DNA of 64,000 nt, taken from UHGV virus genome UHGV-0212524; one strand, written 5' to 3'. Positions 31,709 to 47,620 of this stretch are shown in pieces. Positions within the stretch are counted from its first letter, which is position 1. Each line of letters opens with the position of its first letter. The position numbers and the translations under genes were made by a program. The DNA is from a virus. The notes beneath the pieces are model-generated. The model had not been told where the DNA came from, did not search any database, and was given only the letters and a program-made list of their open reading frames with translations.

Positions 31709-31718
31709 TTCTCACCTC

Positions 31719-32114
31719 CTATCGTCCTGTGCACGACGAGCAGCCACCGGTACAGCTACTGGAGCACGATGCTGTACAGCCGCCCGTACAAGTGCCCGAG
31801 CACGCATTAGCGCACCCACCCGAACAACTCCCCGAACACCCTGAACAGCTACTTGAACACCCTGACGTACAGTTTGCAGAGCATGAAGAACCGCAACCAC
31901 CAGACGCGTTCCCTGTACAGCCACCAGAGCAACTCGAGCAGGTAAAGGAACACGTGCCCGCACAGTCATAATGCGCACGATTCCGACCACCGAACAGGTC
32001 CGCGTTATTCGTGGCCTTATTGCGGATGTAGTTCTGTACACCTGTGGTGTTTTTCAGCGCGATACTATCGACGTTATTAAGACGTCTTACTAATTCAGCT
32101 AATCCAACCGCCAT
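31719..32114 (-). CDS. Cys-rich precursor-like peptide B (leader + long CxxxC-repeat core)
   Basis: 131 aa; AGGGGGA RBS; ~55-aa leader then ~75 aa of C/S/G/T/A/N with ~20 Cys mostly spaced Cx3C; ends GR. Confidence 0.7.
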   Translation of the reverse strand: MAVGLAELVRRLNNVDSIALKNTTGVQNYIRNKATNNADLFGGRNRAHYDCAGTCSFTCSSCSGGCTGNASGGCGSSCSANCTSGCSSSCSGCSGSCSGGCANACSGTCTGGCTASCSSSCTGGCSSCTGR

Positions 32115-32123
32115 TTCTTCCCC

Positions 32124-32516
32124 CTATCGACCAGAGCAACCGCCGGAGCAAGCACCCGAACAGTTATGCGAACAACGCCCAGTACAACTTCCAGTACAGG
32201 TACTTGTACAACTGCTAGAACAAGCCCCCGAGCAGCCAGAGCATCCCGAACAGTTGCCCCCACAGGACGAAGAGCAGCTACCCACGCACGACGCTGAACA
32301 GTTTCCTGAACAGCTCGAGCAACCGTGAGTACATCCGTTAGAACATGTCCACGAACACGCTCCTCCGCAGTCTAAACGCGAAGGCGTCCAACCGGAAAAC
32401 GAATCTGCCGCGTTATGCGCTTTCGATGCGACCTGCGCATTGACACGAGGGCCGGTAGCGACTGTATTTTCTACTGTGGTTAACCGATCGCGCATTTGTT
32501 TAACACTAATCGCCAT
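32124..32516 (-). CDS. Cys-rich precursor-like peptide A (leader + long CxxxC-repeat core)
   Basis: 130 aa; AAGGA RBS; leader MAISVKQMRDRLTTVEN...; core DCGGACSWTCSNGCTHGC...; ends GR. Confidence 0.7.
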   Translation of the reverse strand: MAISVKQMRDRLTTVENTVATGPRVNAQVASKAHNAADSFSGWTPSRLDCGGACSWTCSNGCTHGCSSCSGNCSASCVGSCSSSCGGNCSGCSGCSGACSSSCTSTCTGSCTGRCSHNCSGACSGGCSGR

Positions 32517-32581: not shown

Positions 32582-33787
32582 TTATTTCGTACCCGCTTCC
32601 GCCTGTACGTCATCACGAGACGTCAGGTTAGCGTTAACGTGTACTGGGGCCTGAACCACACCACCGTATCTCTTGTGGAGATAACCGGTGTGCGGGTTAT
32701 CTGCCGCGATGTGGTTTTGTAGGTTCTGGTTCGCTTGACTGATTGCGTTCGTGTTATTGTTAACTTGCTGTTTAAGCGCATCCAGGTTCTGTTGTACCTG
32801 ATCGATTTTCTGATCGGTTTCTTGACCCTGTTGCTCTAACGCGGCAACACGCTGAATAACCTGATTCAGTTTTGTGTTTAAATCGTTGATGCTCTTTTGC
32901 AGTTGTAACACTAACGAGTTCAGGTTCGCTAACGCTAAGGCCATTTTCTGGTAGTTTTGAGCAACCACGTTAAGTTGGTCGTTCCACGCTTCCAGAGAGT
33001 TGACAACAGCGTCAATACGCTTACCTAAAGCTTCGTCCGCTTTCTTCAGTGCATTGATTTCCGTAATCGTTGCGTCGATGGCAGACTGGACGTCACGAAT
33101 AAGCGCACGGATTTCAGTTTCTGTTAACCCGTTAACCTGATGAATATCAAGATGGTGAACGTTACCGGTTGCGTTGATGTGTGCATTTAAAGCGTCTAAG
33201 AAGTCATTTTTCAGGCTTTCTAAAATCGCTTTAATGTTCTCTAACTGTACCGCGTCACCGGAACTGATCGCATCTTTAATACCCGCCAATACGGTAATGA
33301 TATATTCAAAACCGTAGATGTCACCCACGTCTTTATACGTCGGTGCAGATGGGAATGTATCCGGTACGTTACGCAGGTCTTTAAACGCAATCGTACGGTT
33401 ATCGAGGTTTAATTCAGCAATCGCCTGTTCGATAGCCACAATGTTCGCAGACTGTGGACCACCAACGACCTGCGCAGATACCGTAATATCTGTTGGAATC
33501 GCTGTGTTAGTGACCACCACCGCCATAACAATCTCGCGGTTTTTAGTCAGCTTTTCATAAGTCGGGTGTGCAAAAATCAACTCATAATCGGTACCACGTT
33601 CGTAGGTTGCATCCGGTCGGTTAGCAACACGTAAACGGAACGTGTCCGCAAAGAACGGGCCGTCAGGAAAAGCAAAAGCACGGTTTACTTTACCTGTACC
33701 TAACGTAATCTGACGCTCTACAGCGTTAGACGTTAGCGAGCCCGTTAAATCTAAAGGATATTGATAAACAATGGAGGCCATGGCCAC
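32582..33787 (-). CDS. tail fibre-like protein with coiled-coil C-terminal half
   Basis: 401 aa; N-terminal FPDGPFF..RLRV....TDYEL module shared with three upstream giants; Q/N/L-rich coiled coil. Confidence 0.7.
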   Translation of the reverse strand: MAMASIVYQYPLDLTGSLTSNAVERQITLGTGKVNRAFAFPDGPFFADTFRLRVANRPDATYERGTDYELIFAHPTYEKLTKNREIVMAVVVTNTAIPTDITVSAQVVGGPQSANIVAIEQAIAELNLDNRTIAFKDLRNVPDTFPSAPTYKDVGDIYGFEYIITVLAGIKDAISSGDAVQLENIKAILESLKNDFLDALNAHINATGNVHHLDIHQVNGLTETEIRALIRDVQSAIDATITEINALKKADEALGKRIDAVVNSLEAWNDQLNVVAQNYQKMALALANLNSLVLQLQKSINDLNTKLNQVIQRVAALEQQGQETDQKIDQVQQNLDALKQQVNNNTNAISQANQNLQNHIAADNPHTGYLHKRYGGVVQAPVHVNANLTSRDDVQAEAGTK

Positions 33788-33821
33788 TCTCCTTTATTCG
33801 AGACGTCCTTGTCTCGAGTCA

Positions 33822-36800
33822 TTAAGATGTAAACATAAGATTGAACTGGAGTTTGTCGATATCGCGAGTTTCCGCCGGATTCACGGCATCGTACGCGGTC
33901 GCTACGTAAACGGTTAGCGTACCGTTAGCGTAAGACGATTTCACCGGTGGGTTAGTTCCGGTCTGACCATCTCGGACAATGAGCGTAGGTTCACTCGGGA
34001 GATTGTCAAACTGACCCTTGACCGCTTTATACACCAAACCAGATTGCGCAGCCAGTTCAGTGTCCGTAAAGACAAAGAACGGTGTGTCGATATCAGCCTG
34101 CTTGACGATGGTGTTCGATTCAACGTCAATCAACTGTACCGCCCCAAACTTCGTACGATAACTTTCATACTCGTTCTTCGGAATAACGAACGTGACATGA
34201 ACACGAACCTCCTCGGCAGGTTTAAACCCACTGTGCTCTTTTTCCAGGTACTGGTTGGCGGTTAACGTTACCGTTTGTTCAGTCATCGTACCACCGGCCT
34301 GGTTTAATGCATACCGAGCTTCAACAATACCGGTTGGTGCAGCAAGTCGTAGTTTCAGAGCACGATTCGCCGTTCCTGGATTACCTGGCACCTGAACACG
34401 CAAACTCAATGCTAAGTAAGCATTCGTTCCGGTAGTCGGTTTCGTATACGCACCAATCCATTTCATGTTCGCAGACGCTGCCTGCATGTTCTCAGAAGCA
34501 GTGGCTGTCGCAATGTTAGCAGCTACCGCTTTCTGCCAGAATTGGTCAGCGCAGTTCTCATACGCTACCCTGGCCACGCTCTTATAACCCGAATACGTTT
34601 CCTGAATTGGTAACTTAGGACGCGTCGTAATGCCGGACAGTGAACCCCATTTCTGACCGTCAACATACCCTTCACCTTTCGACGCAGACGCCGTAGGTGC
34701 TTTAACGGGCTTGTTAACCAGTGTTAATAGAGGACCCGTCTTTCTGTCAAACGCTGCTGCTACATCGTGTTGGTCGATAATTGCTGCGTGGTCTTCCAGT
34801 TCTTTCACACGACCCAAACGTTTTACTTTGTCGATACTGATACCAGTAATACGGCTGGAATCGGTGGTTACTGTCCCAACGAACAGTCTTGTTGAGGTAT
34901 CGGCTAACTGCTCCAAACCGATGCGGTATTGCGCGGTAGAACCCGACACCTCAGCGTGCACGTAGAACGTCTGGTTAGCGTGATTGGATGGGAACTCACT
35001 GCTTAAATCCACAGACCACGTTGGGAGTGTGTAACTGCTGCTACCGAAATCTAATTTGACTTCTTCTGTCAAATACAGAATCCAACCTTCCGCTGTTTCC
35101 ACACCGGCAATAATAACCGCCTGACCTCCGGTTGAGAACGTCGTGTCGTTAACGAACTCTGCGGCTGTATACGCGTTACCTGAACAGAAAACACGGTCAG
35201 CTTTAGAGTAAATCAACGCCATCTTGTCCCAATCACCGGCACCCATATAGCACCCAGATTCTGGTCTATGTTCAGGGGCCATCTGCCGTAACTGTGATTT
35301 ACCTGCAACGCGTGTCCAACCTGAACCAGGGTCGAAGGTATATTTAGCAGCGTAGCCCAGGGCGTTTAAGTCCCCGATATTTCGGGTAGTTAACGTATAA
35401 GGTAACCAGATACCGAAGTTAGTTCCATCCGCAGATGCAAAAATAGGCTGCCCCACGCGCCTCGTTTTACCTCCCGCTCCCCCATTTAGTGACTGATAAC
35501 TTAAACCATAATCGAGGTCTAAGAACCAGTCCACCAACTTAAAGGTGGCTGAGTTGAAACGTAAGTAGCCGTTCTCTTTAGATGGGCTCACCATGAAGTA
35601 ATAGATGTCAAGAATTCGACGTCCGTTACTTGAGGTTTTCATGCACGAAACTTGCAACAAGTCAAATTCGCACACGGTGTTGATACCCAACATCCAAAGA
35701 GCAAACAATGCATTACCGGTTTGATGTGCAGCACTAATACGTTCGTTCGCGTAACCATTTGCTTGACCAGATGGCGCACCGTCAACGATCATCCGAATCA
35801 TTTTCTGCCGATCGGCTTCTTCTAGCGTTAAGCGTTCGGAAGACAATGCGAAGTTACCGTAGATGTTACGATACGGGAACGTTTCTGCTTTGGTCAAATA
35901 CCAGCCGTTCAACTGTCCATGACGCTCCTCAGGGATCATGCACGCAGCCATACAGCTAAGCTGCTCGTAAAGCGTTGGATCGACTTCACGACGGTTGTTG
36001 TTCGGACCGTACCCACTATACCCAGAAACATCGTAAGGTTTGTTCGGATCAACTTCCACTTCGATCGTGTAACGGTTACGAGGGTTCGATAACCAGACCT
36101 TATTCGAACCACCAATCCCTACTGGATAAGACAAACCGATGGTGTAAATGGAGCCACGGCCTTTATCCCAGGTAAACGTTCCTTCGCCCGAGGTGTTGTT
36201 TGGGTTATCGTAACGCAGATAATCGAAAAGCTCTCTGCCTTGTGTACTCTTAATAGAAACATTAGGCATTTGGTCCGCATCGGCAATTTGCCAACAGGAA
36301 AGCATCATTCCTGTACCGTTGGGTTTAGCATACGTCGCGAAACAACGGTTGTTTGCCTGGCCACCACCCCACTTACGATTGGTTCCTACAGTTGAACCAT
36401 CTGCGAACGAGAGTGTAGTAGTAGCATCAGCCTTGATGGGGAAGCGTTCGCGGCCTTCTAACGTAACCTTGCCCGTCAACGTATCGATTGTAAAACTTGT
36501 TGCCCATTGAAGGAAATTAATCGTCGTACCGTCGGCCGCTGCAAACCACACGGTAGGCATATGGTTCACACGAATCACGCTATCGCGCACAGCACACGCG
36601 TGGTTACATTCTGGACCGTGAACAAAGTTACGCCCGATCGTCCATTTAGCACGACCCTCCGGTGTGAGATATGTAAAGAATTGACCCGTTTGCGACTCTT
36701 CGGTTTTCTGACCAATACGCAAGCAGAGGTTATCTCCGAATTGTCCCATCTCGCCGGTTAGAGTTACACGTTCAAATTCTAACGTAGTGTTAGTAGACAA

Positions 36801-39008
36801 ATCGGCCTTACGTAGACGCCAAGCTGCTACGGCGTAAGCGGAGTTATTTACCGTTGAACGGAGAAGATAAACGTAGTCCTCAACCAACACGACATCGTCA
36901 GCTTCCGGCCACGGGTTCCAGGTTTGTTCCACAGTACCACTGGGGTTGCCGTTACGGTACACGGGCATCGTAACGCGACATACCACCGTGTGCTTAGTGT
37001 GGTCCATCGAGCCATTAAACAGCACCAAATAACGGTTATTGTCAGAACCCAGGCAAATAATCGCTTCCTGGCCACCGATCAATATCGCTATTAGGGTCAC
37101 CCCAGGATATTTACTCATCCCGGCAGGGTGATATTTCACTGAGGTCTGCTGCGGATTTACAAACGCGTTTGACGTGTCAATGTCAGCATAGCCGTAATAA
37201 ATAGCTTCCGTACCCGGCACGCCGTTAGAACCGTTACGGAGCGAATAAACCTTACCCTGCTGATACCCAACAACCCCTTTCTGGTAGGACTGGTTTTTGG
37301 TATAGCCTGCGTAGTTACCTAACGCTGGGATAGGTAAGAAGTTCTTGTTACCGAATTTCGCTCCACCTACCGTCCACGCCGGTAAGATGGTATTCAGTTT
37401 ATCAGAGACCTTCTTAATCTCTTTTGCGAACAACCAGCCTTGACGCGACGTGACAGCTTTATCGTTAGTGGTGTCAATTGCATCCCAGAGCTGTAAGATA
37501 CCGTCAACCGTTGCACTACCAATCGGGACGTTATCCAAGTCAGCAGTGGTGTGGGTGTGCGTTTTCAAACTCTTGTTTTTCAACACGTTCGTTAACGCTT
37601 TTGTCACAGGCTTATCACTCGGTATGGTGTTATCCATCTTATCGATACCGAAATCGGTTTTCGTTAAGGTTAACACCATATTGTCGCCTGTTTTAACAAA
37701 CCCTTTACCGTTAACGGTATAGTCATCGTCAACGTACAAGTCCAAGCGGTCTTTTAATTCTGTTACAGCTTTCTGGGAGATAGCAGTACCTAACGCCGCA
37801 GACGTAGAGATATTCGTAATCGAGAACAACCCATAAACTGATTCGGACGCCGTGGGAATATTCGCGTTTAACGTAACCGGGTTAGTCTGTTTTGCGGTAC
37901 CGTACGGTTTTACAGTGTCTGACGCTTTGAAATACGCGTTTGCTTCAAGCAACGTTACTGACGTCAGATACATGTTCACCATTTCTGGTGTAACCAGGTA
38001 CACGGAGTTATAAACTGGCGCTAATACGTCCTGTTCCGACCCCGAGTGAACCCAAAGCGTATTCAGACCCGCACTGAATTCAACCGCTAAACCCGATTCG
38101 TTGTTGTCCTGGTCTGCTTTAATCACCAACGGTTGTGGCGAGGTAATTAACCACTTATCACCACGAATACTGATGATGTGGCCACCTGACGTTTTAAACG
38201 TTAATTCATTACCGTTCGTGGTACCCCATCGACCGTAAACGGTGCCGAGGGCTTCACCCATTAACTGGTCAACGTCCGATTGCTCAATACCCGCTGAACC
38301 CATCAGCGTAGCCAACTCGTCAATCGTCAACCCAAACGCTTTTGTAGCGTCAACAGCACGACCTAATACCGGGAGAGCAGCAATGTCATCAGTGGTATAA
38401 TGATGCGCGTTAGGGTTACGGTGATGCTGGTATAACTCTTCGTCGAAAACCTTTTTACCGTTCTCGTAAATCAAGTTAGTGACTTCACTGAACGCAGCAT
38501 CTAATTCCGTAGAACGTTTGATGATTTTCTTGCGAATGTCTTCTAACGCCTTAACAACCTCATCCCTCAGAATCGCTTCTTCTAAGTTAGCAGGCGGGTC
38601 GATAGGCTGAATAACCGGCGCATACGCCATTAGTTCAGACCAGTCCACGTTACGTGGGTCTTTCAGGTCAGTACGAACTAAGAACTTCCCGATTTCAGAT
38701 TGCGGTACACGGTATTGACGTGCTACCCCTAAAATCTCATATTCGATTTCTGTTGCAGTAAGCAACATAAACCCGCCGTAAATCTGATCTTGTTCAGCTT
38801 CTGCGAGTTCTTTAAAGTAATAGCCTAAATAGTAGTCCAACCCCTCAATCAGAGTACGACGTCCGTTAGGCGCGGTATCGTCGGCTACTGTGAGTTTTAA
38901 TCCGATACGATAAAAAGGTCCTTCAGGCGGAATGACCACGTTAAATCGGTTAGGGTACGTCGCTGTGCTTAGCGTACCGTTAAACTGCGCCGCGTCTTCT
39001 CTCGGCAT
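33822..39008 (-). CDS. giant tail fibre/spike-like structural protein (1728 aa)
   Basis: N-terminal IPPEGPFY..LKLTV....GLDYYL module; AGGAG RBS. Confidence 0.75.
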   Translation of the reverse strand: MPREDAAQFNGTLSTATYPNRFNVVIPPEGPFYRIGLKLTVADDTAPNGRRTLIEGLDYYLGYYFKELAEAEQDQIYGGFMLLTATEIEYEILGVARQYRVPQSEIGKFLVRTDLKDPRNVDWSELMAYAPVIQPIDPPANLEEAILRDEVVKALEDIRKKIIKRSTELDAAFSEVTNLIYENGKKVFDEELYQHHRNPNAHHYTTDDIAALPVLGRAVDATKAFGLTIDELATLMGSAGIEQSDVDQLMGEALGTVYGRWGTTNGNELTFKTSGGHIISIRGDKWLITSPQPLVIKADQDNNESGLAVEFSAGLNTLWVHSGSEQDVLAPVYNSVYLVTPEMVNMYLTSVTLLEANAYFKASDTVKPYGTAKQTNPVTLNANIPTASESVYGLFSITNISTSAALGTAISQKAVTELKDRLDLYVDDDYTVNGKGFVKTGDNMVLTLTKTDFGIDKMDNTIPSDKPVTKALTNVLKNKSLKTHTHTTADLDNVPIGSATVDGILQLWDAIDTTNDKAVTSRQGWLFAKEIKKVSDKLNTILPAWTVGGAKFGNKNFLPIPALGNYAGYTKNQSYQKGVVGYQQGKVYSLRNGSNGVPGTEAIYYGYADIDTSNAFVNPQQTSVKYHPAGMSKYPGVTLIAILIGGQEAIICLGSDNNRYLVLFNGSMDHTKHTVVCRVTMPVYRNGNPSGTVEQTWNPWPEADDVVLVEDYVYLLRSTVNNSAYAVAAWRLRKADLSTNTTLEFERVTLTGEMGQFGDNLCLRIGQKTEESQTGQFFTYLTPEGRAKWTIGRNFVHGPECNHACAVRDSVIRVNHMPTVWFAAADGTTINFLQWATSFTIDTLTGKVTLEGRERFPIKADATTTLSFADGSTVGTNRKWGGGQANNRCFATYAKPNGTGMMLSCWQIADADQMPNVSIKSTQGRELFDYLRYDNPNNTSGEGTFTWDKGRGSIYTIGLSYPVGIGGSNKVWLSNPRNRYTIEVEVDPNKPYDVSGYSGYGPNNNRREVDPTLYEQLSCMAACMIPEERHGQLNGWYLTKAETFPYRNIYGNFALSSERLTLEEADRQKMIRMIVDGAPSGQANGYANERISAAHQTGNALFALWMLGINTVCEFDLLQVSCMKTSSNGRRILDIYYFMVSPSKENGYLRFNSATFKLVDWFLDLDYGLSYQSLNGGAGGKTRRVGQPIFASADGTNFGIWLPYTLTTRNIGDLNALGYAAKYTFDPGSGWTRVAGKSQLRQMAPEHRPESGCYMGAGDWDKMALIYSKADRVFCSGNAYTAAEFVNDTTFSTGGQAVIIAGVETAEGWILYLTEEVKLDFGSSSYTLPTWSVDLSSEFPSNHANQTFYVHAEVSGSTAQYRIGLEQLADTSTRLFVGTVTTDSSRITGISIDKVKRLGRVKELEDHAAIIDQHDVAAAFDRKTGPLLTLVNKPVKAPTASASKGEGYVDGQKWGSLSGITTRPKLPIQETYSGYKSVARVAYENCADQFWQKAVAANIATATASENMQAASANMKWIGAYTKPTTGTNAYLALSLRVQVPGNPGTANRALKLRLAAPTGIVEARYALNQAGGTMTEQTVTLTANQYLEKEHSGFKPAEEVRVHVTFVIPKNEYESYRTKFGAVQLIDVESNTIVKQADIDTPFFVFTDTELAAQSGLVYKAVKGQFDNLPSEPTLIVRDGQTGTNPPVKSSYANGTLTVYVATAYDAVNPAETRDIDKLQFNLMFTS

Positions 39009-39042
39009 CGTAAAGACTCCTACTTTTAAATAAAATGGATAC

Positions 39043-39064
39043 CCCTCCCCATTACAGGGAGGGG
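39043..39064 (-). terminator. intra-operon hairpin between two giant structural genes
   Basis: CCCCTCCC..GGGAGGGG inverted repeat; T-rich tract follows on the minus strand before the next RBS. Confidence 0.5.
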
Positions 39065-39102
39065 TTACCTACGGACACACAACTGCCCGCAGGCAGCCTG
39101 TC

Positions 39103-42100
39103 CTAAGTACGATCCCCTAACTGCTTCCCGTTAAGTTCACGTTTCAGTACAGAAAGTATCCATTTCCACGCTTTACTCGTGATATGGTACGGATTGCGTT
39201 TCTCCATTAAGAACTGCTTTTCACCGCTACGCAGTTCGAAGCTCTGCGCATTAAGCTGATCCTGACGAGTGCTTTGCTCATCAGTCACGTCTAACGAACA
39301 GGTAAAGTTAAGCTCGTAACCTTCGGGATTATCACCCGGCGGGTCTAAGACAATATAGATGTCCTGACCTACACGTAAGTCGGTGGCCGTGATACTAATC
39401 GCTTTACCTACGTCAGCACTGGTTGACAGAGCAAACTCTGCGCTATCAGTAGACGCTAAGAATGGGTCTTTCCCTGCGTCGCCGATAATCACCTTACCTG
39501 GCCAGTTACTTTTTATCGTTCCTGACACTTTTGCAATTCGGTACTGTTGTTTATCGGCACCTTGTGCAAAACGGAGAATGAGTTTGTGACGATAACGACT
39601 TGCAGCAGCCTTAGTCGTACTCCACTCGTTGTTCCAGGAAGTATGCAGTTCGTTTTTCTTCGCCATCAGCGCACCGCGAGACAGCTTACGATCAAAGAAC
39701 TGCGCAGGTAACTGCCCATCGTGAGAAACCGCAACGTTTCCCTGACCAGTTGGCAAGGCAATGCTCTCCGTGGCACGGTATTTTTGACTAATCTCATAAG
39801 TCGCAGGGTCAATCACAGACTGACTATAATCAGCGTCTTTGTTATCAGCCAAATACCCAACGGATGAATCCAAATACGACTCAAACAACGAACGTAAGTA
39901 ATGATACTTATCAATGTCGATGTTGTTCGTAACCGGATCAATCAGTGCGTGGCTAATTGTTACTCGGCATTTCGCGCTCAGTTCTTTAAACGACAACCCT
40001 ATTCCGTCACCGGTGAAATAATCCACCAAGTCAAACGGGAATTGAATCTCCAATTGACGTTGTTTAACTGTCGTCGTCCCAAACTGCGAGAACGACAACG
40101 CTAAACGTAACACACGCGTACTTACGTTATAACGGTAACGAATCATCCCACGAGGTGCATGGTTTGCAGAGATTTTATCTCGGGTGGCACCCCAGCCAAT
40201 CAAATCGAGAATCGCGGGGTTGGTTTCTTCACCGTTGAACAACACGTCCTTAAACGTTGCATTCACCGCTGTTTCCCCAGACTCTTCCATTACCAACGGA
40301 ATGTCAGTAACGTCTGAAACTGAACGGGAACCAATCCCCAACTTACACGCTTTGTCCGTCAGGTCAATACGTACATAACGACGTTTAACACTCGCCCCTT
40401 GCGTTGACGTACATAGCACCAAATCTGGTGCGGCAGTAAGTGCTTGTGTTCCACCGACGTCGTCAACATCGAATGCAAACGAACCTTCGAACGTCGGTGC
40501 GTTGTTTTCTTTCGGGTTAAACGGTGTAAACCAGCAATACGGTGTAGCACCTTCAGGCATCACAACGTACTGAAGACTGGACTTCACGTTTTGGTTGTGT
40601 GCGTAAGTATAAAGACCGCGACTGACAAGATGGAAAACATCACCTGTTCCGGCTGTTAACGCTTTCCTAAAGATACACGCTCTTGGTTCGGCAATAGCAC
40701 GGTTTAATAACGGCAAACGTGGGTTATCCGTTAACGCCCAGTCCACAGAACTGAGTCCGTGTGCTTTACGCGTGTCGATGTGTTCACTAACCTCGGCACT
40801 TTTCCCGAAATCAAACGTGGTTTCGAACCCTACCGTTTTATTCGCGTAATTCTCACCAGCAACAATATCAACGTAACCGATATAACCACGTTCAGGATCA
40901 ACTGCGATGCTCTGAATCGGTTCAGCACGCGAATACAGAGAGCCTGTGAGCATGTTAACGTACAGATAGTGACGAATCCCTACGTGCGTGGTAACAAACT
41001 CCTGGAGAAGCTCTACGCGCGTTTCAGGGCCACTGAAGTAAACAGGGTAATCCCCATCGTAAACTTCAAACTGTACCGCTGCGGACTTAGCCGTGTCACT
41101 ACATTCAGCTTTAACCGCAATCGTGTAGTTTTCAACGTCTGCTGACGTTTCATACACTGCAACGAGTGGAGATTCGCCTGAAGCTGCTAGGTTACCGTTG
41201 ATATAAACGGTTACCGGTCCGCCCCCTGCGGCATAAACCCAGAGCTTCGATTGGTACGCCCTTACACGCGTTTTTGCCAGAACCGTAACGACTGACTGGT
41301 CACCCATCTGTGTAGCAGTTTTACCTACCGGGACAGACTGGAACCCCATCAACGGCGGTTCTTCAATACCCGTCCAGTTGATTCCCGTACCGTTACTCAC
41401 CTTACCCGTAGGCCAGGTCAGTTCAAGCTGGTTATTCGGTGAGAACCAGTTAAACATCGGGGTGGTTTGCAGGTCAATCGCACCAGTAACGGTGCTGTCG
41501 CCTTTCGTCCCGTCCAGCAAATAGAAATATTTCAAATCCTGAACGGAGATTGACGTACCCTGGCTATTAAAGCGCCAGTCTGCACCTTTCACAGCAGCAA
41601 AATCAGTTACCGTGCCTTCTTTCGCGTTTGCAATTGCAGCAGCCACCACATCTAAACGGGCTGAAAGCTCTTTTAAGATGTTCGGTACCACCGCACGGTT
41701 TTCAACTAAGCCGTTCTGGTTAGTTGCGTAACGACCGATGCCGTAAATCGACTGCGAGGCTTTATAAATGCCTAACTCTGACCAGTCGTGATGGTGTCCG
41801 ACGTCTGCTAAACCACTAACCGAAGCATTCAGTGCGGTTGACAACGGTTTGTCGAGGTCTGCGGTGTTATCCGCTTGCCCTAATCCCAGGTCAGCTTTTG
41901 TGATTGTCCTGGAACCGTCGTTCATCGGTTTACCGTTAATCATGGTCGTTTTAGTCACGTACCCTGATAAGTCGGTTGAATACGGCGTTAATGACGCAGG
42001 GGTTGCAGCAACCCCAACCGTTTCTGTGCCTTTACCGGTTTTAAGTTTAACAACACCTTTTTCAGCGGTGGTCGCTTTCGTCGGGTCGATAGTCCCCACG

Positions 42101-43287
42101 ATAGGATCGGCACGAGAACCTTTACCGGTAAAACTAATCCCGTTACGGCCTTCGATATACACTTTGGAGTCATCAGGATCGCTACCGCCACTCCCGCCAG
42201 CATCAGGGTCTTGCTGATACTCCATCAGCGCTGTGGTGGTCAACAACGGGTTACCGTTCAGAGTGAGTTTGTTCATCCCTAAAGCGTCACCGGTTGACTC
42301 GATACGTAAGGTGTTTTTACCCGCACGCCAGTTAATGTAACGTCCCGCACCTGTGCCTTCCAGATGCCCTACCGCCAATACCACAGAACCGTTGGATTTT
42401 AACGTAAAGCCATCATTCGCAAAAATGATTTCGGACTCACCATTTTTCGAACGGAACTGTGCGCGGTTTCCAGACACCGTACAGTTAAACACGCCCCGTA
42501 CTTCCGAAGAAATCCAGTGGGAGATATACGTGTCAATAACTGACTGTGGTAAACGAAACGCTTTCAGTTCTTCCGTTAACGCTTTTAATTTTAACCCGTA
42601 CGCCATAAAGGTGTCAGGTGTTTTCAGGTTAACGGGATGGGCATTAATTTGTGCGCTCGTGGTTTCGTGCGGGTTCGTCGCGGCGATATGTGCTGGGTAG
42701 TTAAACGCTTCGATTTCTTTCCCCAACGCAGCCACTAGCGCTTTAACTTCGGCTAATTTATCTTTAATTAGCTGGTTAGCATCATCGGTTTTCAGCTCGA
42801 TATCGTGAATCGCTGACGCTAAATATTTTTTGTTCAGCAAGTCCGCCCAGGACGTTGCCGCTGGCGTAGCCGGGTATAACGACGGTCTACCGTCTAACAA
42901 CAGCCAGTCTGCACTGACCGGGTTATTCAAATATTTCACCAGCTCGTCGAGCATGTCAACGAACGGGTCGTAGAACGTACCGCCGAGCATTTGCCCTTCA
43001 AAGGTTACAATGCCTTTGATGGATGGGTTGATAAGGTGTACCCCACAATACACGTTGGCTGCTACCGAGTCATCCAGTTCCGTCAGCTGATATTGCAGTT
43101 CGTAATCCACCCCACGGCTCAGTGGGGTGGTTGAACCTGGTTGTCTGACGACTAAGTCTTCAAAGAACGGGCGATGGTCTAAAATCACCACCCGGTCGTT
43201 GTTGTTTTCTGACCCGATGATACGCTCCTCTAAGAAGTGATTCTCGGTTTTCGTCCCCCGAGGATCGTAAGGATACGCTTTCATCAA
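39103..43287 (-). CDS. giant tail fibre/spike-like structural protein (1394 aa)
   Basis: N-terminal DHRPFFEDLVV......GVDYEL module. Confidence 0.75.
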   Translation of the reverse strand: MMKAYPYDPRGTKTENHFLEERIIGSENNNDRVVILDHRPFFEDLVVRQPGSTTPLSRGVDYELQYQLTELDDSVAANVYCGVHLINPSIKGIVTFEGQMLGGTFYDPFVDMLDELVKYLNNPVSADWLLLDGRPSLYPATPAATSWADLLNKKYLASAIHDIELKTDDANQLIKDKLAEVKALVAALGKEIEAFNYPAHIAATNPHETTSAQINAHPVNLKTPDTFMAYGLKLKALTEELKAFRLPQSVIDTYISHWISSEVRGVFNCTVSGNRAQFRSKNGESEIIFANDGFTLKSNGSVVLAVGHLEGTGAGRYINWRAGKNTLRIESTGDALGMNKLTLNGNPLLTTTALMEYQQDPDAGGSGGSDPDDSKVYIEGRNGISFTGKGSRADPIVGTIDPTKATTAEKGVVKLKTGKGTETVGVAATPASLTPYSTDLSGYVTKTTMINGKPMNDGSRTITKADLGLGQADNTADLDKPLSTALNASVSGLADVGHHHDWSELGIYKASQSIYGIGRYATNQNGLVENRAVVPNILKELSARLDVVAAAIANAKEGTVTDFAAVKGADWRFNSQGTSISVQDLKYFYLLDGTKGDSTVTGAIDLQTTPMFNWFSPNNQLELTWPTGKVSNGTGINWTGIEEPPLMGFQSVPVGKTATQMGDQSVVTVLAKTRVRAYQSKLWVYAAGGGPVTVYINGNLAASGESPLVAVYETSADVENYTIAVKAECSDTAKSAAVQFEVYDGDYPVYFSGPETRVELLQEFVTTHVGIRHYLYVNMLTGSLYSRAEPIQSIAVDPERGYIGYVDIVAGENYANKTVGFETTFDFGKSAEVSEHIDTRKAHGLSSVDWALTDNPRLPLLNRAIAEPRACIFRKALTAGTGDVFHLVSRGLYTYAHNQNVKSSLQYVVMPEGATPYCWFTPFNPKENNAPTFEGSFAFDVDDVGGTQALTAAPDLVLCTSTQGASVKRRYVRIDLTDKACKLGIGSRSVSDVTDIPLVMEESGETAVNATFKDVLFNGEETNPAILDLIGWGATRDKISANHAPRGMIRYRYNVSTRVLRLALSFSQFGTTTVKQRQLEIQFPFDLVDYFTGDGIGLSFKELSAKCRVTISHALIDPVTNNIDIDKYHYLRSLFESYLDSSVGYLADNKDADYSQSVIDPATYEISQKYRATESIALPTGQGNVAVSHDGQLPAQFFDRKLSRGALMAKKNELHTSWNNEWSTTKAAASRYRHKLILRFAQGADKQQYRIAKVSGTIKSNWPGKVIIGDAGKDPFLASTDSAEFALSTSADVGKAISITATDLRVGQDIYIVLDPPGDNPEGYELNFTCSLDVTDEQSTRQDQLNAQSFELRSGEKQFLMEKRNPYHITSKAWKWILSVLKRELNGKQLGDRT

Positions 43288-43297
43288 AAAATTCTCC

Positions 43298-46200
43298 TTA
43301 ATCGCGAATGATTACCGCCTGCACTTTATTGTTGGTGTCGATAAACGACATTACGCGCTCCTTGTTAAGATAAGGAGGTATCGGTAACGCAGCGTAATCC
43401 GCCAGGCTGTTATTAAACTCGGTTGCCACTAGCGCATTAAGCGTTTCAGGGTCTGAGCTTGTCCCGGCCAATTCCATGACGCGTACACGATTTAACGAGG
43501 AGTAGTTGCTGATATAATCCAACAGCGTACCGTAGAGTTTGTTCCCGGTTATGCTGTCTGTCGTAGAACGGATATTAGCACGCACTTCGTCCTCATAAAG
43601 TCCCCCTAAACCGTAGTAAATAGGGGTGTACGGATCGTTAACGATAGGCGCGAGGTTGAACCCAGTTAAACGGTCGGTCAGCGAGATTTTCTGCGTAGTA
43701 CCACCTGCCGCCGTACAGCTTACGTATTTATCTGCCGCAGACAAATACACCACAATAGTGTAAACAGTACCTGCTAAGGTCAGCGTTGCGTTAAACGTTA
43801 ATTCGTTATTCGCACCACGCGTGTGGGTAAATGATACGTCAGGATGTAACGTACTCCACGGTGCTGGGGTAACGCGTTTGGTCGGCGTGAAACCTAACAC
43901 CACGGATTTCCCGTTACCGAAGTTTAAACCAAACCCGGCGTAACAATACTCACCGTTACTGTCGGTTAAACGATAACCACGGGTGATAAGTAACGACAAC
44001 CGCATAAACTCGTCTTCGGTATTTTTCCAGCAAGCCAGGATGGTTTCTAGCACCGTTCCGGTTTTTGCGTTGCTTTCGGTTTCCCAACTGACTCGCATCC
44101 CCGCATTGTTAAATACCGGGAACAGGTTGTGGATAAACCCGTGAACGTTATCACTTACCCCTTTTGCATCAAACACCCACTTCGACGCAAGCTGGTCGTA
44201 TTTCACACCATCGAGTGCTTTATATCCACCGCCAACCACATAACGCCAGTCTGCTTCGCCACGCACAACCGCTTGAAGTCCAGAAGCCCAGCAGGGCGCA
44301 CCTACTGTTAAATTGCTTAACCCCAGCACTGCACGTGAAGCAGAACGCTGAATGTGTGCGTTATCATTGGCGACGTGGTCTTTCAGCTCACGGAAATCGC
44401 CTAACCGTGTCACGTTACGTAGTTCAGTAACGAACACTTCAGAAAGGTCGTTAATACCGATTAGACCCACGCGCGTCATGGTATCCGTTTCAGCCTGACT
44501 GTAGCTGTCGTGAATAATGTACTTCGCTTTGTTATCGACAATGTCAACAAAAATCCCTGCGTAAATTTCCTTATTCAGATTCGGGAAACGTTCAGTGACG
44601 TTAACCGACATCAACGGCACGTCGTACGTTTCGCCGCCAACGAAATACGTGGAAGCAGGAAGTGTCACTAGGATTTTGTCTTTAACCGTAACGTCAATTA
44701 GGTCGTTACCGGACTTACCAAAGCGAATAATGTCAACGCGCGCACCCGAGTCAACCCCGCCGACGGTATTCTCCAAATCTTCAATCTGGGAAGTCTGCGC
44801 CATCACCACACTACCGTCGAGCGCTAAAGTGGCATCATCCACTTCCAGACCGAATTTAATCAGGCCCCGTTTCGTGGTGTCTGCGTTCGCAACACCGAAT
44901 ACGGAAGACGGGTGTTGGTGAACCTTCGGTGAGTATTTGTCCAGCTCGGTCTGCTGTGCAACAGAAATCGGTAAGTCAACGTCCGGGGTATTCGCAACGT
45001 TACCTAAACCAAAGGTAATTTTGTCGATAGTAACCGAACTGGTAAGCTGCATGTCGTTGATGTACGACTTGGCGGCAACTAACTTACCGGTAAACTCTGC
45101 GTCCAGTTTTTCAATTAACGCAGGGGTTGCTGCGAGGTTTTCAGCCGTACCGAATTCGTCCGTTAACTGCCAACACGCTAACGTAGTAACGTCTTCGGCA
45201 ACCGGAAGAATAAACGTTGCGACAAACGGCGACGCTTTAATCCCGCTACCCGTAAGTTCCACTGTAGCTGTAGTTGCACCGTAGAATAATCCCGTACCGC
45301 CTGCGGTATTGCCCGGCAAATACGGCGCTACCGTAGTGGGGTCTAAGAGTTTCTTACCGCGCCACAGTAATCCACGGTCATCAGGATATAGCACAAGCTG
45401 GTTATCTCCCGCTTGCAACGTTACCGGGTTGTTACCCACGTTAACGTCAGTAGAACCTTGACCGATGAACTTAATGGATTTCGGATCAACGACAAACTGA
45501 GCACCTAAACGTCTCTCGTCAACAACGCCAGGTGCTTTCTTAATGGTAACCGTGTTACCTTTGTTTTGCGAACTAATATTGACGCCGTCAGCAACATTAT
45601 TGATCAGCGATTTAAAGTGGTGCTGATTCTCTAATGCTTCTAACGCAGCGTCCATGTTATTGAAGTTAATCCGACCGCTATACGTTTTACTGTTTACGGT
45701 AATAACGACGTCAAACACATTCCCTGTACGCTTCAGTTGAAAACGTAGCGTAAAATCCCCATCCGGTATTGCCGGATTAGGAGCTTGCGAAATATACCGA
45801 ACTGCCGGTACAGGACTACCGTAACCGTGCAACGCCAGTTCGATAGTAAGAGTACCGGACCAGACTTCACCGGTAATCTCTACGTACTTACCGGAGTTAC
45901 TACCGGGATTTTCGTAGAAACGAAAACCAACCCTACCGACCGCTTCATTACCAGACGCTGTTTTACGTCCGGTAACAATAAAGTCAATATCTTGCAGGTT
46001 GGCAGGTACCGCATTAAAGTTAGCACTGAAACCGCTTTTCGTTCCTGTATAACGAAGCGCACCGTGATATCTGTGGCCACTACTAACATAGCTTTCACTA
46101 AAATAAGGACTCACGTACTTCGACATCGACACTGGGTCGACTTCAGTAGTAAATGACGTAAAGCCGGGGAGCGTTGTAATCGTGCCGTTAACGTTCTTGC

Positions 46201-47620
46201 TCGCTGATTCACGAAGCAGTTTTTTCTGGGCGGTTAACGTTGCCTGCGTTGGGTACTTAGCGTTTACGTAATCGGTTAATTGCTCCTTAGTTTTCCCGTA
46301 GGCTAATGCTGCGTCGGATGCAATGCCGTTTAATTCTAACGCACGAATCGGACCCCAGGTGTCAGCGTGTGGGTTATCCTTACGGGTGACGTGTTCGTGC
46401 GCAGGCGCGTTGCGATAGAGCTGTTCTACTAACTGATGGTACTTAACGATTAACTGATAAACGTCGTTACTTACGTCTGCTTCTGGCGCACCAGGTAACG
46501 CAAGGAATTGAGCATAATCGTTCTCAGCCGCCCACCAGTTTAAGTTAACGTTGGTTTTGTACTTCAGCCACTTCGCAACATCCGTTTTGGTGTAACCTGC
46601 TGAGAATTCGTCTGGCGGTGTGTCAACGTTAAAGGTGTAGTCCATGGACTGTTTGTTAGTCGTCACCTCGATAACGTATACACCGTTACCCGGTTGACGA
46701 ACAACGCTAAACGTTAATTCGCCTTTTAATTCATCGTCGGTCAAACCGTTGATTAACGTATAATCATAATCGGTCGAACCACTGCCTAACGCAACTGTCA
46801 GTCGTAGGCTGATTTTACGTTGTTTTAATTGGAGACGAAGGATACTTGCGCCACCGTTCGCGTAGCACAACATCCAATCGATTTGTTCGTTCGGATTAAT
46901 ACTCCCCATATTCGGAAAAATAGCCGGAATACGGTATTTCATCGACAGGGAATATTCATTTAACGTGGTGGTTTTGTACGTAACGGAGAAACGGCGTTTA
47001 GCGGTATTGTAAGTATACCCACCTTTGTTGTCGTACGTTGCGTACTGTTCAGACGTGATAACCGTACCATTAGCACGATGCTCGATATCTAACGTGTTAC
47101 GTGCAATCGGGTCTACCCGATTCACCACGTTACCTAACGAATCACCTAAGCCTGCAATGGCCTGCATTAATTCCAGTTCACCTTTCCAGTTTTCCCAGTC
47201 GAACTGAATATCGACCGGTGGAAAGTAAACTTCGCCGATAACGGTATCCCATTGACACGCAGACGGGTATTTATCTTTATTGAGTTCGCGTTCTGCGGTA
47301 ATCTGTTCTTGGGTCGCTTCACCACAACCTACGGCGTGGTAATCTACCGTGAAATTCGATTTGTATTTGTCATTAACAATCCAAATCATCCCGTGCACGA
47401 GATAGGCTGTGCGCAACATACCGGTCTCGTACGGGTGTGTAATAACGTAATCGTCGCCTAAGGTCAGTATTTTGCCGCCGCTCTTGACCACCAGGGATGT
47501 GGTGAAAAAAGGGGCGTGGGCAGGTACCAACATTCGGTACTTCGTACCAATGACGGCGACCGCTTCACCGGTTATTTTATTCCCCGGTTCTTTGAAGTGT
47601 GGGTCTAGGACGACAGCCAT
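43298..47620 (-). CDS. giant tail fibre/baseplate-like structural protein (1440 aa), first gene of minus-strand operon
   Basis: N-terminal PAHAPFFTTSLVV......GDDYVI module; 10-nt gap to next gene. Confidence 0.75.
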   Translation of the reverse strand: MAVVLDPHFKEPGNKITGEAVAVIGTKYRMLVPAHAPFFTTSLVVKSGGKILTLGDDYVITHPYETGMLRTAYLVHGMIWIVNDKYKSNFTVDYHAVGCGEATQEQITAERELNKDKYPSACQWDTVIGEVYFPPVDIQFDWENWKGELELMQAIAGLGDSLGNVVNRVDPIARNTLDIEHRANGTVITSEQYATYDNKGGYTYNTAKRRFSVTYKTTTLNEYSLSMKYRIPAIFPNMGSINPNEQIDWMLCYANGGASILRLQLKQRKISLRLTVALGSGSTDYDYTLINGLTDDELKGELTFSVVRQPGNGVYVIEVTTNKQSMDYTFNVDTPPDEFSAGYTKTDVAKWLKYKTNVNLNWWAAENDYAQFLALPGAPEADVSNDVYQLIVKYHQLVEQLYRNAPAHEHVTRKDNPHADTWGPIRALELNGIASDAALAYGKTKEQLTDYVNAKYPTQATLTAQKKLLRESASKNVNGTITTLPGFTSFTTEVDPVSMSKYVSPYFSESYVSSGHRYHGALRYTGTKSGFSANFNAVPANLQDIDFIVTGRKTASGNEAVGRVGFRFYENPGSNSGKYVEITGEVWSGTLTIELALHGYGSPVPAVRYISQAPNPAIPDGDFTLRFQLKRTGNVFDVVITVNSKTYSGRINFNNMDAALEALENQHHFKSLINNVADGVNISSQNKGNTVTIKKAPGVVDERRLGAQFVVDPKSIKFIGQGSTDVNVGNNPVTLQAGDNQLVLYPDDRGLLWRGKKLLDPTTVAPYLPGNTAGGTGLFYGATTATVELTGSGIKASPFVATFILPVAEDVTTLACWQLTDEFGTAENLAATPALIEKLDAEFTGKLVAAKSYINDMQLTSSVTIDKITFGLGNVANTPDVDLPISVAQQTELDKYSPKVHQHPSSVFGVANADTTKRGLIKFGLEVDDATLALDGSVVMAQTSQIEDLENTVGGVDSGARVDIIRFGKSGNDLIDVTVKDKILVTLPASTYFVGGETYDVPLMSVNVTERFPNLNKEIYAGIFVDIVDNKAKYIIHDSYSQAETDTMTRVGLIGINDLSEVFVTELRNVTRLGDFRELKDHVANDNAHIQRSASRAVLGLSNLTVGAPCWASGLQAVVRGEADWRYVVGGGYKALDGVKYDQLASKWVFDAKGVSDNVHGFIHNLFPVFNNAGMRVSWETESNAKTGTVLETILACWKNTEDEFMRLSLLITRGYRLTDSNGEYCYAGFGLNFGNGKSVVLGFTPTKRVTPAPWSTLHPDVSFTHTRGANNELTFNATLTLAGTVYTIVVYLSAADKYVSCTAAGGTTQKISLTDRLTGFNLAPIVNDPYTPIYYGLGGLYEDEVRANIRSTTDSITGNKLYGTLLDYISNYSSLNRVRVMELAGTSSDPETLNALVATEFNNSLADYAALPIPPYLNKERVMSFIDTNNKVQAVIIRD

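What the first reader, a model, noticed from the sequence alone, without database searches (positions are those of the whole stretch)
32582..47620. Four consecutive fibre-like proteins (401 to 1728 aa) share an N-terminal P-F-(F/Y) ... L.V ... G.DY.L module
The N-termini of the 1440-, 1394-, 1728- and 401-aa proteins align over about 45 residues, then diverge. A shared anchor with different distal domains suggests a multi-fibre or branched adsorption apparatus carrying several receptor-binding or depolymerase specificities.
Basis: seen in the sequence. Interest (0 to 1): 0.5.

Follow-up and report, generated by a model that had tools for sequence, protein, structure and literature searches.

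The report
Jumbo-phage baseplate fibre paralogue set

Summary
The four minus-strand ORFs at 32582-47620 (1440, 1394, 1728 and 401 aa) share a real N-terminal module, and it is larger than reported: about 160 aa in all four, about 215 aa between p401 and p1394, and about 550 colinear aa among the three large proteins.

The module is the phiKZ gp131-like N-terminal domain. A profile built only from the window hits phiKZ gp131, gp135, gp134 and gp133 (E 6e-22 to 1e-8). The divergent neighbour (47688-48950) is a gp130 homologue.

The orthologues are SPN3US gp167-170. gp168-170 are published as "Paralog family C", baseplate/tail-fibre candidates. All four are virion proteins by mass spectrometry. 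A 2026 phiKZ cryo-EM atlas places six such N-domains plus a six-helix bundle beneath gp130 at each of 12 fibre sites.

Identity to orthologues falls from 70-86% at the N-terminus to about 30% at the C-termini of the three large proteins. Predicted distal folds are beta-propeller (p1728) and lectin/PA14-like beta-sandwich (p1394). No beta-helix depolymerase fold was found.

New here: p401 is a fourth family member. Two ancient N-domain types suggest a 3+3 hexamer rule. p1440 has a lineage-specific 200-aa insertion.

Verdict: new member of a known kind, modest interest.

The parts
43298..47620 (-). p1440, a large 'A-type' gp131-like fibre paralogue and orthologue of SPN3US gp170 / Asesino gp190. 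Layout: N-domain aa 1-~150, insertion A (~aa 177-379), helix/NPH segment (~aa 386-454), insertion B, shaft (~aa 705-950), a domain shared with p1728 (aa 965-1114), then a variable C-terminus.
39103..43287 (-). p1394, a large 'A-type' paralogue and orthologue of SPN3US gp169 / Asesino gp189. The probable true start is ATG 43284.
33822..39008 (-). p1728, a large 'A-type' paralogue and orthologue of SPN3US gp168 / Asesino gp188.
32582..33787 (-). p401, the small 'B-type' paralogue and orthologue of SPN3US gp167 / Asesino gp187. It has the N-domain plus helix (aa ~1-220), a long coiled coil (~aa 220-360) and a C-terminal NPH motif. The probable true start is ATG 33781.
47171..47620 (-). gp131-like N-terminal domain of p1440 (aa 1-150)
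42808..43287 (-). gp131-like N-terminal domain of p1394 (aa 1-160)
38499..39008 (-). gp131-like N-terminal domain of p1728 (aa 1-170)
33278..33787 (-). gp131-like N-terminal domain of p401 (aa 1-170). Its best phiKZ match is gp135.
47688..48950 (+). Homologue of phiKZ gp130 / SPN3US gp171 (420 aa from GTG 47688), the predicted docking platform for the fibre N-domains. It is transcribed divergently from p1440 across a 67-bp spacer.
   Evidence: the phiKZ, SPN3US, Asesino, CR5 and 201phi2-1 loci show the same divergent arrangement
34809..37301 (-). Distal beta-rich region of p1728 (aa ~570-1400), predicted to hold beta-propeller domain(s) plus beta-sandwich. It is followed by a disordered linker (aa ~1400-1465) and a C-terminal beta-sandwich.
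39106..41610 (-). Distal region of p1394 (aa 560-1394), predicted to be lectin/PA14-like beta-sandwich domains.
   Evidence: AlphaFold2 model with mean pLDDT 69.3; Foldseek hits to Pleurotus lectin, legume lectins and PA14
45509..46138 (-). Lineage-specific insertion B of p1440 (aa ~495-704). It is absent from SPN3US gp170 and Asesino gp190, and its fold was not determined.

Best explanation
These four genes are the baseplate-peripheral fibre set of an SPN3US-like (Seoulvirus/Erskinevirus-related) nucleus-forming jumbo phage. They belong to the phiKZ gp131-like family, published in SPN3US as 'Paralog family C'.

The shared N-terminal domain (about 160 aa) and the helix that follows it form the docking and oligomerisation module. 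By homology with phiKZ, six such domains and a six-helix bundle assemble beneath the gp130 homologue, which is encoded divergently next door, on the outer rim of the baseplate.

Beyond a colinear shaft carrying fibre motifs (NPH, DKP..S, HxH), the three large chains diverge. Their distal domains are beta-propeller and lectin-like beta-sandwich, evolve fast, and most likely bind host surface carbohydrate. On this reading the fibres act like short tail fibres that anchor and orient the virion.

Status of each step. Shown: homology, synteny, the conservation gradient and the predicted folds. Taken from the literature on orthologues: virion and tail location, and placement under gp130. Inferred: carbohydrate binding, and co-assembly of the four chains.

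My specific inference is a 3+3 ('A3B3') hexamer made of three copies of p401 (B type) plus one each of p1440, p1394 and p1728 (A type). This mirrors the arrangement proposed for phiKZ: gp131 x3 plus gp133, gp134 and gp135.

The confidence given (0.75) is for family identity and the anchor-plus-variable-tip mechanism. I rate the A3B3 composition separately at about 0.3-0.4.
For: Family identity:
- A profile built from the window's four N-termini hits phiKZ gp131 (6e-22), gp135 (6e-22), gp134 (7e-11) and gp133 (1e-8) at their N-termini.
- BLASTP and hhalign confirm this.
- The + strand neighbour matches gp130 (E 2.5e-11).
- The gene order (gp130 homologue divergent from the paralogue run) is the same in phiKZ, 201phi2-1, SPN3US, Proteus phage 7, Asesino and CR5.

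Virion location:
- SPN3US gp168-170 are tail-associated 'baseplate/tail fiber candidates' (PMC5694885, PMC5105663).
- gp167 is in virions with spectral count per unit mass of 1.90, against 1.00-1.41 for gp168-170.
- The 201phi2-1 paralogues are virion proteins by mass spectrometry, according to the GenBank notes.

Anchor role:
- The phiKZ cryo-EM atlas places six gp131-like N-domains and a six-helix bundle beneath gp130 at 12 fibre sites (PMC13250141).
- The first 100 aa are 70-86% identical to the orthologues, and identity falls to about 30% at the C-termini of the three large proteins.
- The module is N-terminal in nearly all of the 150 best representatives listed, out of 3,201 with E <= 1e-3.
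- Elsewhere it is fused to fibre-tip domains: Peptidase_S74 in 10 of 64, PKD in 4, and single cases of Collar, YadA and collagen.

Distal folds: propeller and lectin/PA14-like.

A3B3 hypothesis:
- The N-domain tree separates a B-type clade (p401, CR5_158, Goslar gp25, phiKZ gp133-135, 201phi2-1 gp218-220; 98/100 bootstrap) from the A type (gp131, Goslar gp29, the three large window proteins).
- Gene counts are 3A+1B here, 1A+3B in phiKZ and 1A+1B in Goslar.
- Shaft landmark spacing is nearly equal in the three A chains: 293, 286 and 282 aa.
- The three large SPN3US orthologues are roughly equimolar, and gp167 is 1.5-2.4 times more abundant.
Against: - There is no structure or experiment for this phage or for SPN3US fibres. 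The phiKZ fibre base was fitted with AlphaFold models into maps of about 4.4-6 A, and the authors call the hexamer composition a 'candidate'.
- Homology to gp131 stops after about 200-240 aa. The gp131 C-terminal propeller (4GBF) is not among the top fold matches.
- The p1394 model is only moderate (mean pLDDT 69), and p1440's distal parts were not modelled.
- Spectral counts are a crude measure of stoichiometry. The observed gp167 excess (1.5-2.4 fold) is below the 3-fold that A3B3 predicts.
- Goslar was sampled over only 40 kb.
- A separate T-even-like fibre and gp38 adhesin cluster may supply primary receptor recognition.
Confidence: 0.75

Rival explanations
1. Independent fibres. Each paralogue forms its own homotrimeric fibre, and the shared N-domain is only a common plug that lets different fibres occupy equivalent baseplate sockets. 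This would give a true multi-fibre apparatus, for example two homotrimers per site, rather than a mixed hetero-oligomer.
For: Trimeric homo-oligomers are the norm for phage fibres (general knowledge). Six N-domains per site could equally be two homotrimers. Goslar has only two paralogues in the sampled region, which fits two homotrimers. In other phages the module is fused to Peptidase_S74, a homotrimer-folding chaperone. SPN3US spectral counts do not reach a 3:1:1:1 ratio.
Against: The phiKZ atlas fitted four different paralogue N-termini into a single site. Exactly four paralogues occur in a 1+3 or 3+1 pattern in two very distant clades. The three large chains have equal shaft spacing and roughly equimolar abundance.
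Confidence: 0.3
2. Structural periphery only. The four proteins build or brace the outer baseplate and fibre network, and do not determine host specificity. Receptor recognition would be carried out by the separate T-even-like long fibre and gp38 adhesins and by the 1001-aa tail protein at 4.2-13.6 kb.
For: The window has a complete, recognisable receptor-binding module elsewhere: Gp38 (Pfam E 3e-69), Gp34_trimer and Peptidase_S74 in a 1488-aa fibre, and a PHROG 'tail protein'. The gp38 gene is 80-83% identical in nucleotide sequence to Krischvirus gp38. The four proteins have no Pfam receptor-binding domain.
Against: The steep fall in identity toward the C-termini and a lineage-specific domain insertion are typical of host-interacting tips. 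The distal folds resemble lectins, sialidases and phage receptor-binding proteins. The phiKZ authors assign host adsorption to these fibres.
Confidence: 0.15
3. Enzymatic tailspikes. The distal domains are polysaccharide depolymerases that degrade capsule or O-antigen, as in phages with several tailspikes (CBA120, PhiK64-1, RaK2).
Against: No right-handed beta-helix was found in either model. No glycoside-hydrolase Pfam or NCBIfam sequence signal was found. Identities are 5-12% with rmsd of 4-5 A, so the matches are at fold level only. Lectins and Kelch propellers score equally well. No catalytic residues were identified.
Confidence: 0.07

Closest known systems
phiKZ gp131 / gp133 / gp134 / gp135 fibre complex (Sycheva et al. 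2012; phiKZ structural atlas, Nat Commun 2026, PMC13250141)
   Same: The N-terminal domain is homologous. Both have four tandem paralogues next to a divergently transcribed gp130 homologue. The NPH and HxH fibre motifs follow the domain. Distal domains vary, and one window protein has a predicted beta-propeller, as gp131 does.
   Different: The proportions are inverted: three large (1394-1728 aa) plus one small (401 aa) here, against one 771-aa plus three of about 460 aa in phiKZ. Beyond about 240 aa there is no sequence similarity, and 4GBF is not a top fold match. The window chains are 2-4 times longer, with lectin-like domains and inserted domains.
SPN3US 'Paralog family C' gp168-170, with gp167 (Thomas et al. 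2016, PMC5105663; Ali et al. 2017, PMC5694885)
   Same: These are direct orthologues in the same order and orientation. Overall identity is 46-50% for the large proteins and 77% for p401. They are virion/tail proteins annotated as baseplate/tail-fibre candidates.
   Different: The published family lists only gp168-170. The small gp167 orthologue is shown here to carry the same module. p1440 is about 200 aa longer than gp170 because of an insertion. The distal thirds are only about 30% identical, consistent with different host specificity.
T4 short tail fibres (gp12) and the gp10/gp11 attachment network
   Same: The proposed role is the same: baseplate-attached fibres that bind surface polysaccharide and hold the virion upright during contraction. 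The phiKZ authors draw this analogy.
   Different: No sequence or fold relationship was detected. T4 gp12 is a homotrimer attached through gp10 and gp11, not a six-domain base beneath a gp130-like protein.
Branched multi-receptor-binding systems with modular N-terminal adaptors (CBA120 TSP1-4, G7C gp63.1/gp66, PhiK64-1/RaK2-type hyperbranched fibres)
   Same: The architectural principle is the same: conserved N-terminal attachment modules with interchangeable distal specificity domains, encoded by consecutive genes.
   Different: From my own knowledge, those systems use T4 gp10-like adaptor domains and beta-helix depolymerases. Here the adaptor is the gp131-like domain, and no beta-helix was found.
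Chimallivirus DUF7941 'fibre cloud' proteins (Goslar gp22/23, phiKZ gp126/127; bioRxiv 10.64898/2026.04.21.720040)
   Same: These are also a Chimalliviridae-specific paralogue family. They are associated with the peripheral baseplate and carry carbohydrate-binding domains.
   Different: It is a different family. The four window proteins have no Pfam hit at all, DUF7941 included. DUF7941 proteins are proposed to be present in very high copy number as head-to-tail filaments.

Membership tests
gp131-like baseplate fibre family (phiKZ gp131/133/134/135; SPN3US Paralog family C) | N-terminal domain homologous to phiKZ gp131-N | tested here: met
   The window-only profile hits gp131 (6e-22), gp135 (6e-22), gp134 (7e-11) and gp133 (1e-8). 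BLASTP gives 1.7e-13 to 4e-4. hhalign probability is 95-97%.
gp131-like baseplate fibre family | The domain sits at the extreme N-terminus and is followed by a helix and NPH-type fibre motifs | tested here: met
   The module occupies residues about 1-170 in all four proteins and in nearly all of the 150 best representatives listed. NPH, DKP and HxH landmarks are present. The consensus of 64 diverse members shows the same motifs.
gp131-like baseplate fibre family | Several tandem paralogues adjacent to, and divergent from, a gp130 homologue | tested here: met
   The ORF at 47688-48950 (+) matches gp130 at E 2.5e-11. The same layout is seen in phiKZ, 201phi2-1, SPN3US, Proteus phage 7, Asesino and CR5.
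gp131-like baseplate fibre family | The proteins are virion (tail/baseplate) components | not testable with these tools
   Not testable for this phage. The SPN3US orthologues gp167-170 are detected in virions, and gp168-170 are absent from tailless particles (PMC5694885). The 201phi2-1 paralogues are virion proteins according to the GenBank notes.
gp131-like baseplate fibre family | Six N-domains plus a six-helix bundle dock beneath gp130 | not testable with these tools
   This is known only from phiKZ cryo-EM. It would need cryo-EM or multimer modelling, and no N-domain structure is in the PDB copy.
gp131-like baseplate fibre family | C-terminal seven-bladed beta-propeller like gp131C (PDB 4GBF) | tested here: inconclusive
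   The distal region of p1728 is propeller-like. However, there is no sequence similarity to gp131C, 4GBF is not among the top matches, and the number of blades was not determined. p1394 is lectin-like instead.
Beta-helix tailspike depolymerases | Right-handed parallel beta-helix catalytic domain | tested here: not met
DUF7941 chimallivirus filament family | DUF7941 domain | tested here: not met
   The three large proteins have no Pfam-A hits at E <= 0.1, and p401 has only coiled-coil noise.
T-even long tail fibre / gp38 adhesin system | gp34/gp37-type shaft domains, Peptidase_S74 chaperone, Gp38 adhesin | tested here: not met
   These domains are absent from the four proteins. They occur in a separate + strand cluster at 7806-13618.

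The most novel reading that the evidence does not exclude
The fibre base follows a conserved 'A3B3' rule across Chimalliviridae: three A-type (gp131-like) and three B-type (gp133-135-like) N-domains per site. Either trimer may be a homotrimer or, after gene triplication, a heterotrimer.

In this phage the three large A-type chains (p1440, p1394, p1728) would form one heterotrimeric shaft. That shaft would splay into three different distal heads (propeller, lectin-like, and one with inserted domains). Three copies of p401 would form a coiled-coil partner. Each of the 12 fibres would then be a single branched organelle showing three different glycan-binding specificities.
Probability: 0.3. Interest if true: 0.55.

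Novelty: new member of a known kind. Interest (0 to 1): 0.3.

Why it matters
Host recognition by nucleus-forming jumbo phages is still poorly understood, and these phages are attractive for therapy because they evade many bacterial defences.

This locus shows that the gp131-like N-domain is a very widespread plug: at least 3,201 clusters at 50% identity, and it is not represented in Pfam. It carries very different distal domains.

The window also gives a concrete, testable stoichiometric prediction (A3B3, with a heterotrimer of three large chains) for the SPN3US genetic model system, where amber mutants already exist. If correct, it would explain why two distant clades each keep exactly four paralogues. 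It would also indicate which segments could be swapped to retarget such phages.

For the scan itself, the main value is negative. The feature is real, but current literature largely explains it.

Tried and rejected
- Word-indexed homologue search with the module alignment returned only 8 hits, mostly fragments. It was replaced by the exhaustive HMMER search.
- PDB sequence searches with the four proteins and with the module profile found nothing significant. The only hint was a weak, motif-level hit to a 'tail collar fibre' (9d93, E 0.06). phiKZ gp131 itself retrieves only its C-terminal crystal structure 4GBF, so the N-domain fold could not be compared with a solved structure.
- Pfam gave no domain for the three large proteins, and only coiled-coil noise for p401.
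- BLASTP self-comparison of each of the four proteins reported no internal duplication. tblastn of p1440 insertion B against 50,697 phage records found no match.
- An exact-sequence look-up of p1728 in public assemblies found nothing on record, and the window phage has no relative above 80% identity in the phage collection.
- hhalign of the p1728 and p1394 family profiles against full-length gp131 found no similarity beyond the N-terminal 200-240 aa, so 'orthologue of gp131 throughout' was rejected.
- The Erwinia RAY paper's 'gp131' is an unrelated helicase.
- Chance similarity was rejected. A beta-helix depolymerase was rejected for the two regions modelled.
- Both structure-prediction jobs went on distal regions, so the N-domain, the p401 coiled coil and the p1440 inserts remain unmodelled.
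Full report
OBSERVATION

The interval 32582-47620 holds exactly four consecutive minus-strand ORFs of 1440, 1394, 1728 and 401 aa (translations). All four carry P-F-(F/Y), L.V and G.DY.(L/I) within their first ~70 residues.

I tested significance in three independent ways.

1. Leave-one-out. An HMM built from three N-termini (150 aa each) was searched against all 408 six-frame ORFs of the window. It recovered the omitted protein as the best non-training hit each time (E 1.7e-4, 1.8e-4, 7.3e-4, 2.2e-6). The best noise hit was 0.078 or worse.
2. An external profile. PHROG 2163 matches all four N-termini (E 6e-16 to 7e-103).
3. A cross-genome test. A profile built only from the window finds the N-termini of phiKZ gp131, gp135, gp134 and gp133 (E 6e-22 to 1e-8).

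No fifth copy exists in the window.

All four share about 160 aa. p401 and p1394 share about 215 aa (hhalign E 2e-13). The three large proteins are colinear over about 550 residues (p1728 23-557 vs p1394 32-571, E 1e-42; p1394 1-569 vs p1440 1-970, E 4e-27). p1440 carries about 400 aa of inserted sequence within that region. A further distal segment is shared by p1728 (1289-1439) and p1440 (965-1114).

WHAT IT IS

The window comes from a jumbo phage related to Erwinia phages Asesino and phiEaH2 and to Salmonella phage SPN3US. It is not itself in the phage collection: nucleotide identity is at most about 78%, and p401 is 77% identical in amino acids to its best matches.

The same four-gene block, in the same order, occurs in Asesino (gp190-187), SPN3US (gp170-167), Proteus phage 7 and CR5.

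In SPN3US, gp168, gp169 and gp170 are published as 'Paralog family C'. They are described as low-abundance 'baseplate/tail fiber candidates', similar to phiKZ gp131 and missing from tailless particles (PMC5694885 and PMC5105663). The 201phi2-1 GenBank record already annotates gp216-220 as mutual paralogues and as virion proteins. So the paralogy and the general role were known.

The small protein was not assigned to family C in that paper. Its SPN3US orthologue gp167 is nevertheless a virion protein (70% coverage, spectral count per unit mass 1.90, against 1.00-1.41 for gp168-170), and here it clearly carries the module.

The + strand gene next to p1440 has its true start at GTG 47688, which matches the N-termini of Asesino gp191 and SPN3US gp171. 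It is a homologue of phiKZ gp130 (E 2.5e-11). In phiKZ, gp130 likewise lies divergently beside gp131-135.

HOW IT MOST LIKELY WORKS

The 2026 phiKZ structural atlas (PMC13250141) locates independent fibre-attachment sites beneath gp130 on the outer baseplate. [quoted passage not shown] The proposed composition is gp131 x3 plus gp133, gp134 and gp135, and there are twelve such fibres, described as functioning like T4 short tail fibres. The homology of the module and of the gp130 neighbour, together with the conserved synteny, supports transferring that architecture to this phage. This transfer is an inference.

Three findings fit an anchor-plus-variable-tip design.

- Identity to the SPN3US and Asesino orthologues is 70-86% in the first 100 residues. 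It falls to about 30% at the C-termini of the three large proteins.
- Across 1.84 billion representative proteins the module is found in 3,201 clusters (1,985 at E <= 1e-10). In the 150 best hits listed it sits almost always at residues about 1-170, on proteins of 159-2,488 aa.
- In 64 diverse carriers the downstream domains include Peptidase_S74 (10 of 64), PKD (4), and single cases of Collar, YadA head, collagen and Gp53-like_C.

The module itself has no Pfam family.

DISTAL DOMAINS

An AlphaFold2 model of p1728 residues 540-1728 was built on 53 sequences. It has mean pLDDT 85.3 and is almost entirely beta-strand.

- Foldseek matches tandem WD40 propellers, GH32/GH43 propeller glycosidases, Sema domains, neuraminidase and podophage nozzle proteins.

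The model of p1394 residues 540-1394 was built on 13 sequences and has mean pLDDT 69.3. It matches Pleurotus lectin, legume lectins, the PA14 domain of anthrax protective antigen and a PA14 sugar-binding domain.

These are fold-level resemblances only (5-13% identity). They make carbohydrate recognition plausible, but they do not demonstrate binding or catalysis. No beta-helix depolymerase fold appeared. Homology to gp131 ends after about 200-240 residues.

The distal parts of p1440 were not modelled. Its insertion B (about aa 495-704) is absent from SPN3US gp170 and Asesino gp190, and it has no match in the phage collection.

A STOICHIOMETRIC INFERENCE

A neighbour-joining tree of N-domains from five phages separates two types.

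- B type (98/100 bootstrap): p401, CR5_158, Goslar gp25, phiKZ gp133-135 and 201phi2-1 gp218-220.
- A type: gp131, 201phi2-1 gp216, Goslar gp29 and the three large window and CR5 proteins.

The gene counts beside the gp130 homologue are 3A+1B in the SPN3US-like phages, 1A+3B in phiKZ and 201phi2-1, and 1A+1B in the sampled Goslar region.

Combined with the phiKZ proposal (gp131 x3 plus one each of three B-type chains), this suggests a conserved A3B3 hexamer. Here it would be p401 x3 plus one each of p1440, p1394 and p1728.

Two observations are consistent with this. The NPH-to-HxH shaft spacing is nearly equal in the three A chains (293, 286 and 282 aa once p1440's insertion is removed). The three large SPN3US orthologues are roughly equimolar, while gp167 is 1.5-2.4 times more abundant.

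This is an inference only. Spectral counts are crude, and homotrimeric fibres remain a serious rival.

CONTEXT THAT TEMPERS THE INTERPRETATION

The window also carries a separate + strand fibre cluster:

- a 170-aa fibre protein (4209-4721);
- a 1001-aa tail protein (4722-7727);
- a 1488-aa T-even-like long-fibre mosaic with Gp34_trimer and Peptidase_S74 domains (7806-12272);
- a Gp38 adhesin (12272-13054, Pfam E 3e-69, 80-83% nucleotide identity to Krischvirus gp38);
- a second gp38-like ORF (13115-13618).

Primary receptor recognition may therefore belong to those proteins. The four gp131-like proteins would then act as secondary, short-fibre-like anchors, as the phiKZ authors suggest for phiKZ.

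COMPARISON AND NOVELTY

The four proteins meet every defining feature of the gp131-like family that could be tested here: N-domain homology, N-terminal position with fibre motifs, and tandem paralogues beside a gp130 homologue. Virion location and placement under gp130 rest on orthologues in the literature. They are not DUF7941 filament proteins, not T-even fibres, and not beta-helix tailspikes in the regions modelled.

The finding is therefore a new member of a known kind. The increments are: the small protein as a family member, the predicted distal folds, the lineage-specific insertion, and the A3B3 hypothesis.

VERDICT

Interest is 0.3.

Noticed in passing
window 28228-32516 (minus strand): Directly downstream of p401 on the same strand lie two paralogous 130/131-aa ORFs (32124-32516 and 31719-32114; PHROG 6085). 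Each has a ~50-aa leader followed by about 80 aa of Cys/Ser/Gly-rich CxxxC-type repeats. After them come a 295-aa ORF and two radical-SAM genes (29552-30469 and 28228-29562). The 444-aa enzyme best matches TIGR04115, 'radical SAM peptide maturase, CXXX-repeat target family' (E 6e-36), and the PapB ranthipeptide maturase. The Cys-rich ORFs score 19.5 and 17.6 bits on the TIGR04114 target repeat (cutoff 20). All of these scores are below the curated cutoffs. The radical-SAM pair is conserved in SPN3US, Asesino, Proteus phage 7 and CR5. SPN3US gp163-166 do not appear in the virion mass-spectrometry tables. A search for papers combining radical SAM, jumbo phage, cysteine-rich and SPN3US found none. 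This looks like a RiPP-like peptide-modification cassette in a jumbo phage next to the fibre operon.
   Followed up: partly
window 4209-13618 (plus strand): This is a separate host-recognition cluster in a stretch of raised G+C (0.47-0.50, against about 0.40-0.42 on either side). It holds a 170-aa fibre protein, a 1001-aa tail protein (PHROG 2871; the matching gene in Proteus phage 7 is annotated as a glycosyl hydrolase), a 1488-aa mosaic long tail fibre (Gp34_trimer and Peptidase_S74), a Gp38 adhesin that is 80-83% identical in nucleotide sequence to Krischvirus RB49/JSE gp38, and a second gp38-like ORF. It looks like a module shared horizontally with T-even coliphages.
   Followed up: partly
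p1440 homologues in public assemblies: Proteins 87-93% identical to p1440 sit on contigs of about 215-227 kb that are labelled as isolate assemblies of Salmonella enterica (many serovars), E. coli and Shigella sonnei. The SPN3US-type 1237-aa version sits on contigs of about 240 kb in Salmonella assemblies. This jumbo-phage lineage seems to be co-assembled often with enterobacterial isolates, through a carrier state, pseudolysogeny or contamination.
   Followed up: no
window 45509-46138 (p1440 aa ~495-704): This roughly 200-aa insertion is present only in the window lineage. It is absent from SPN3US gp170 and Asesino gp190, and tblastn finds no match in 50,697 phage records. Its fold and origin are unknown.
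   Followed up: partly
database proteins P0043 (1313 aa) and P0059 (1821 aa): These two representatives match the module profile through 17 and 15 separate short stretches (profile positions about 42-75, the PFF...G.DY hairpin region) rather than through one N-terminal domain. That sub-motif may occur elsewhere as a tandem repeat.
   Followed up: no
window 27049-27723 (minus strand) and 49407-50372 (minus strand): The fibre locus is flanked on one side by a DUF4376 protein (Pfam E 6e-11) downstream of the radical-SAM genes. On the other side is a 'baseplate assembly protein' (PHROG 3216, E 5e-112) beyond the gp130 homologue. Both have counterparts in the SPN3US locus.
   Followed up: no
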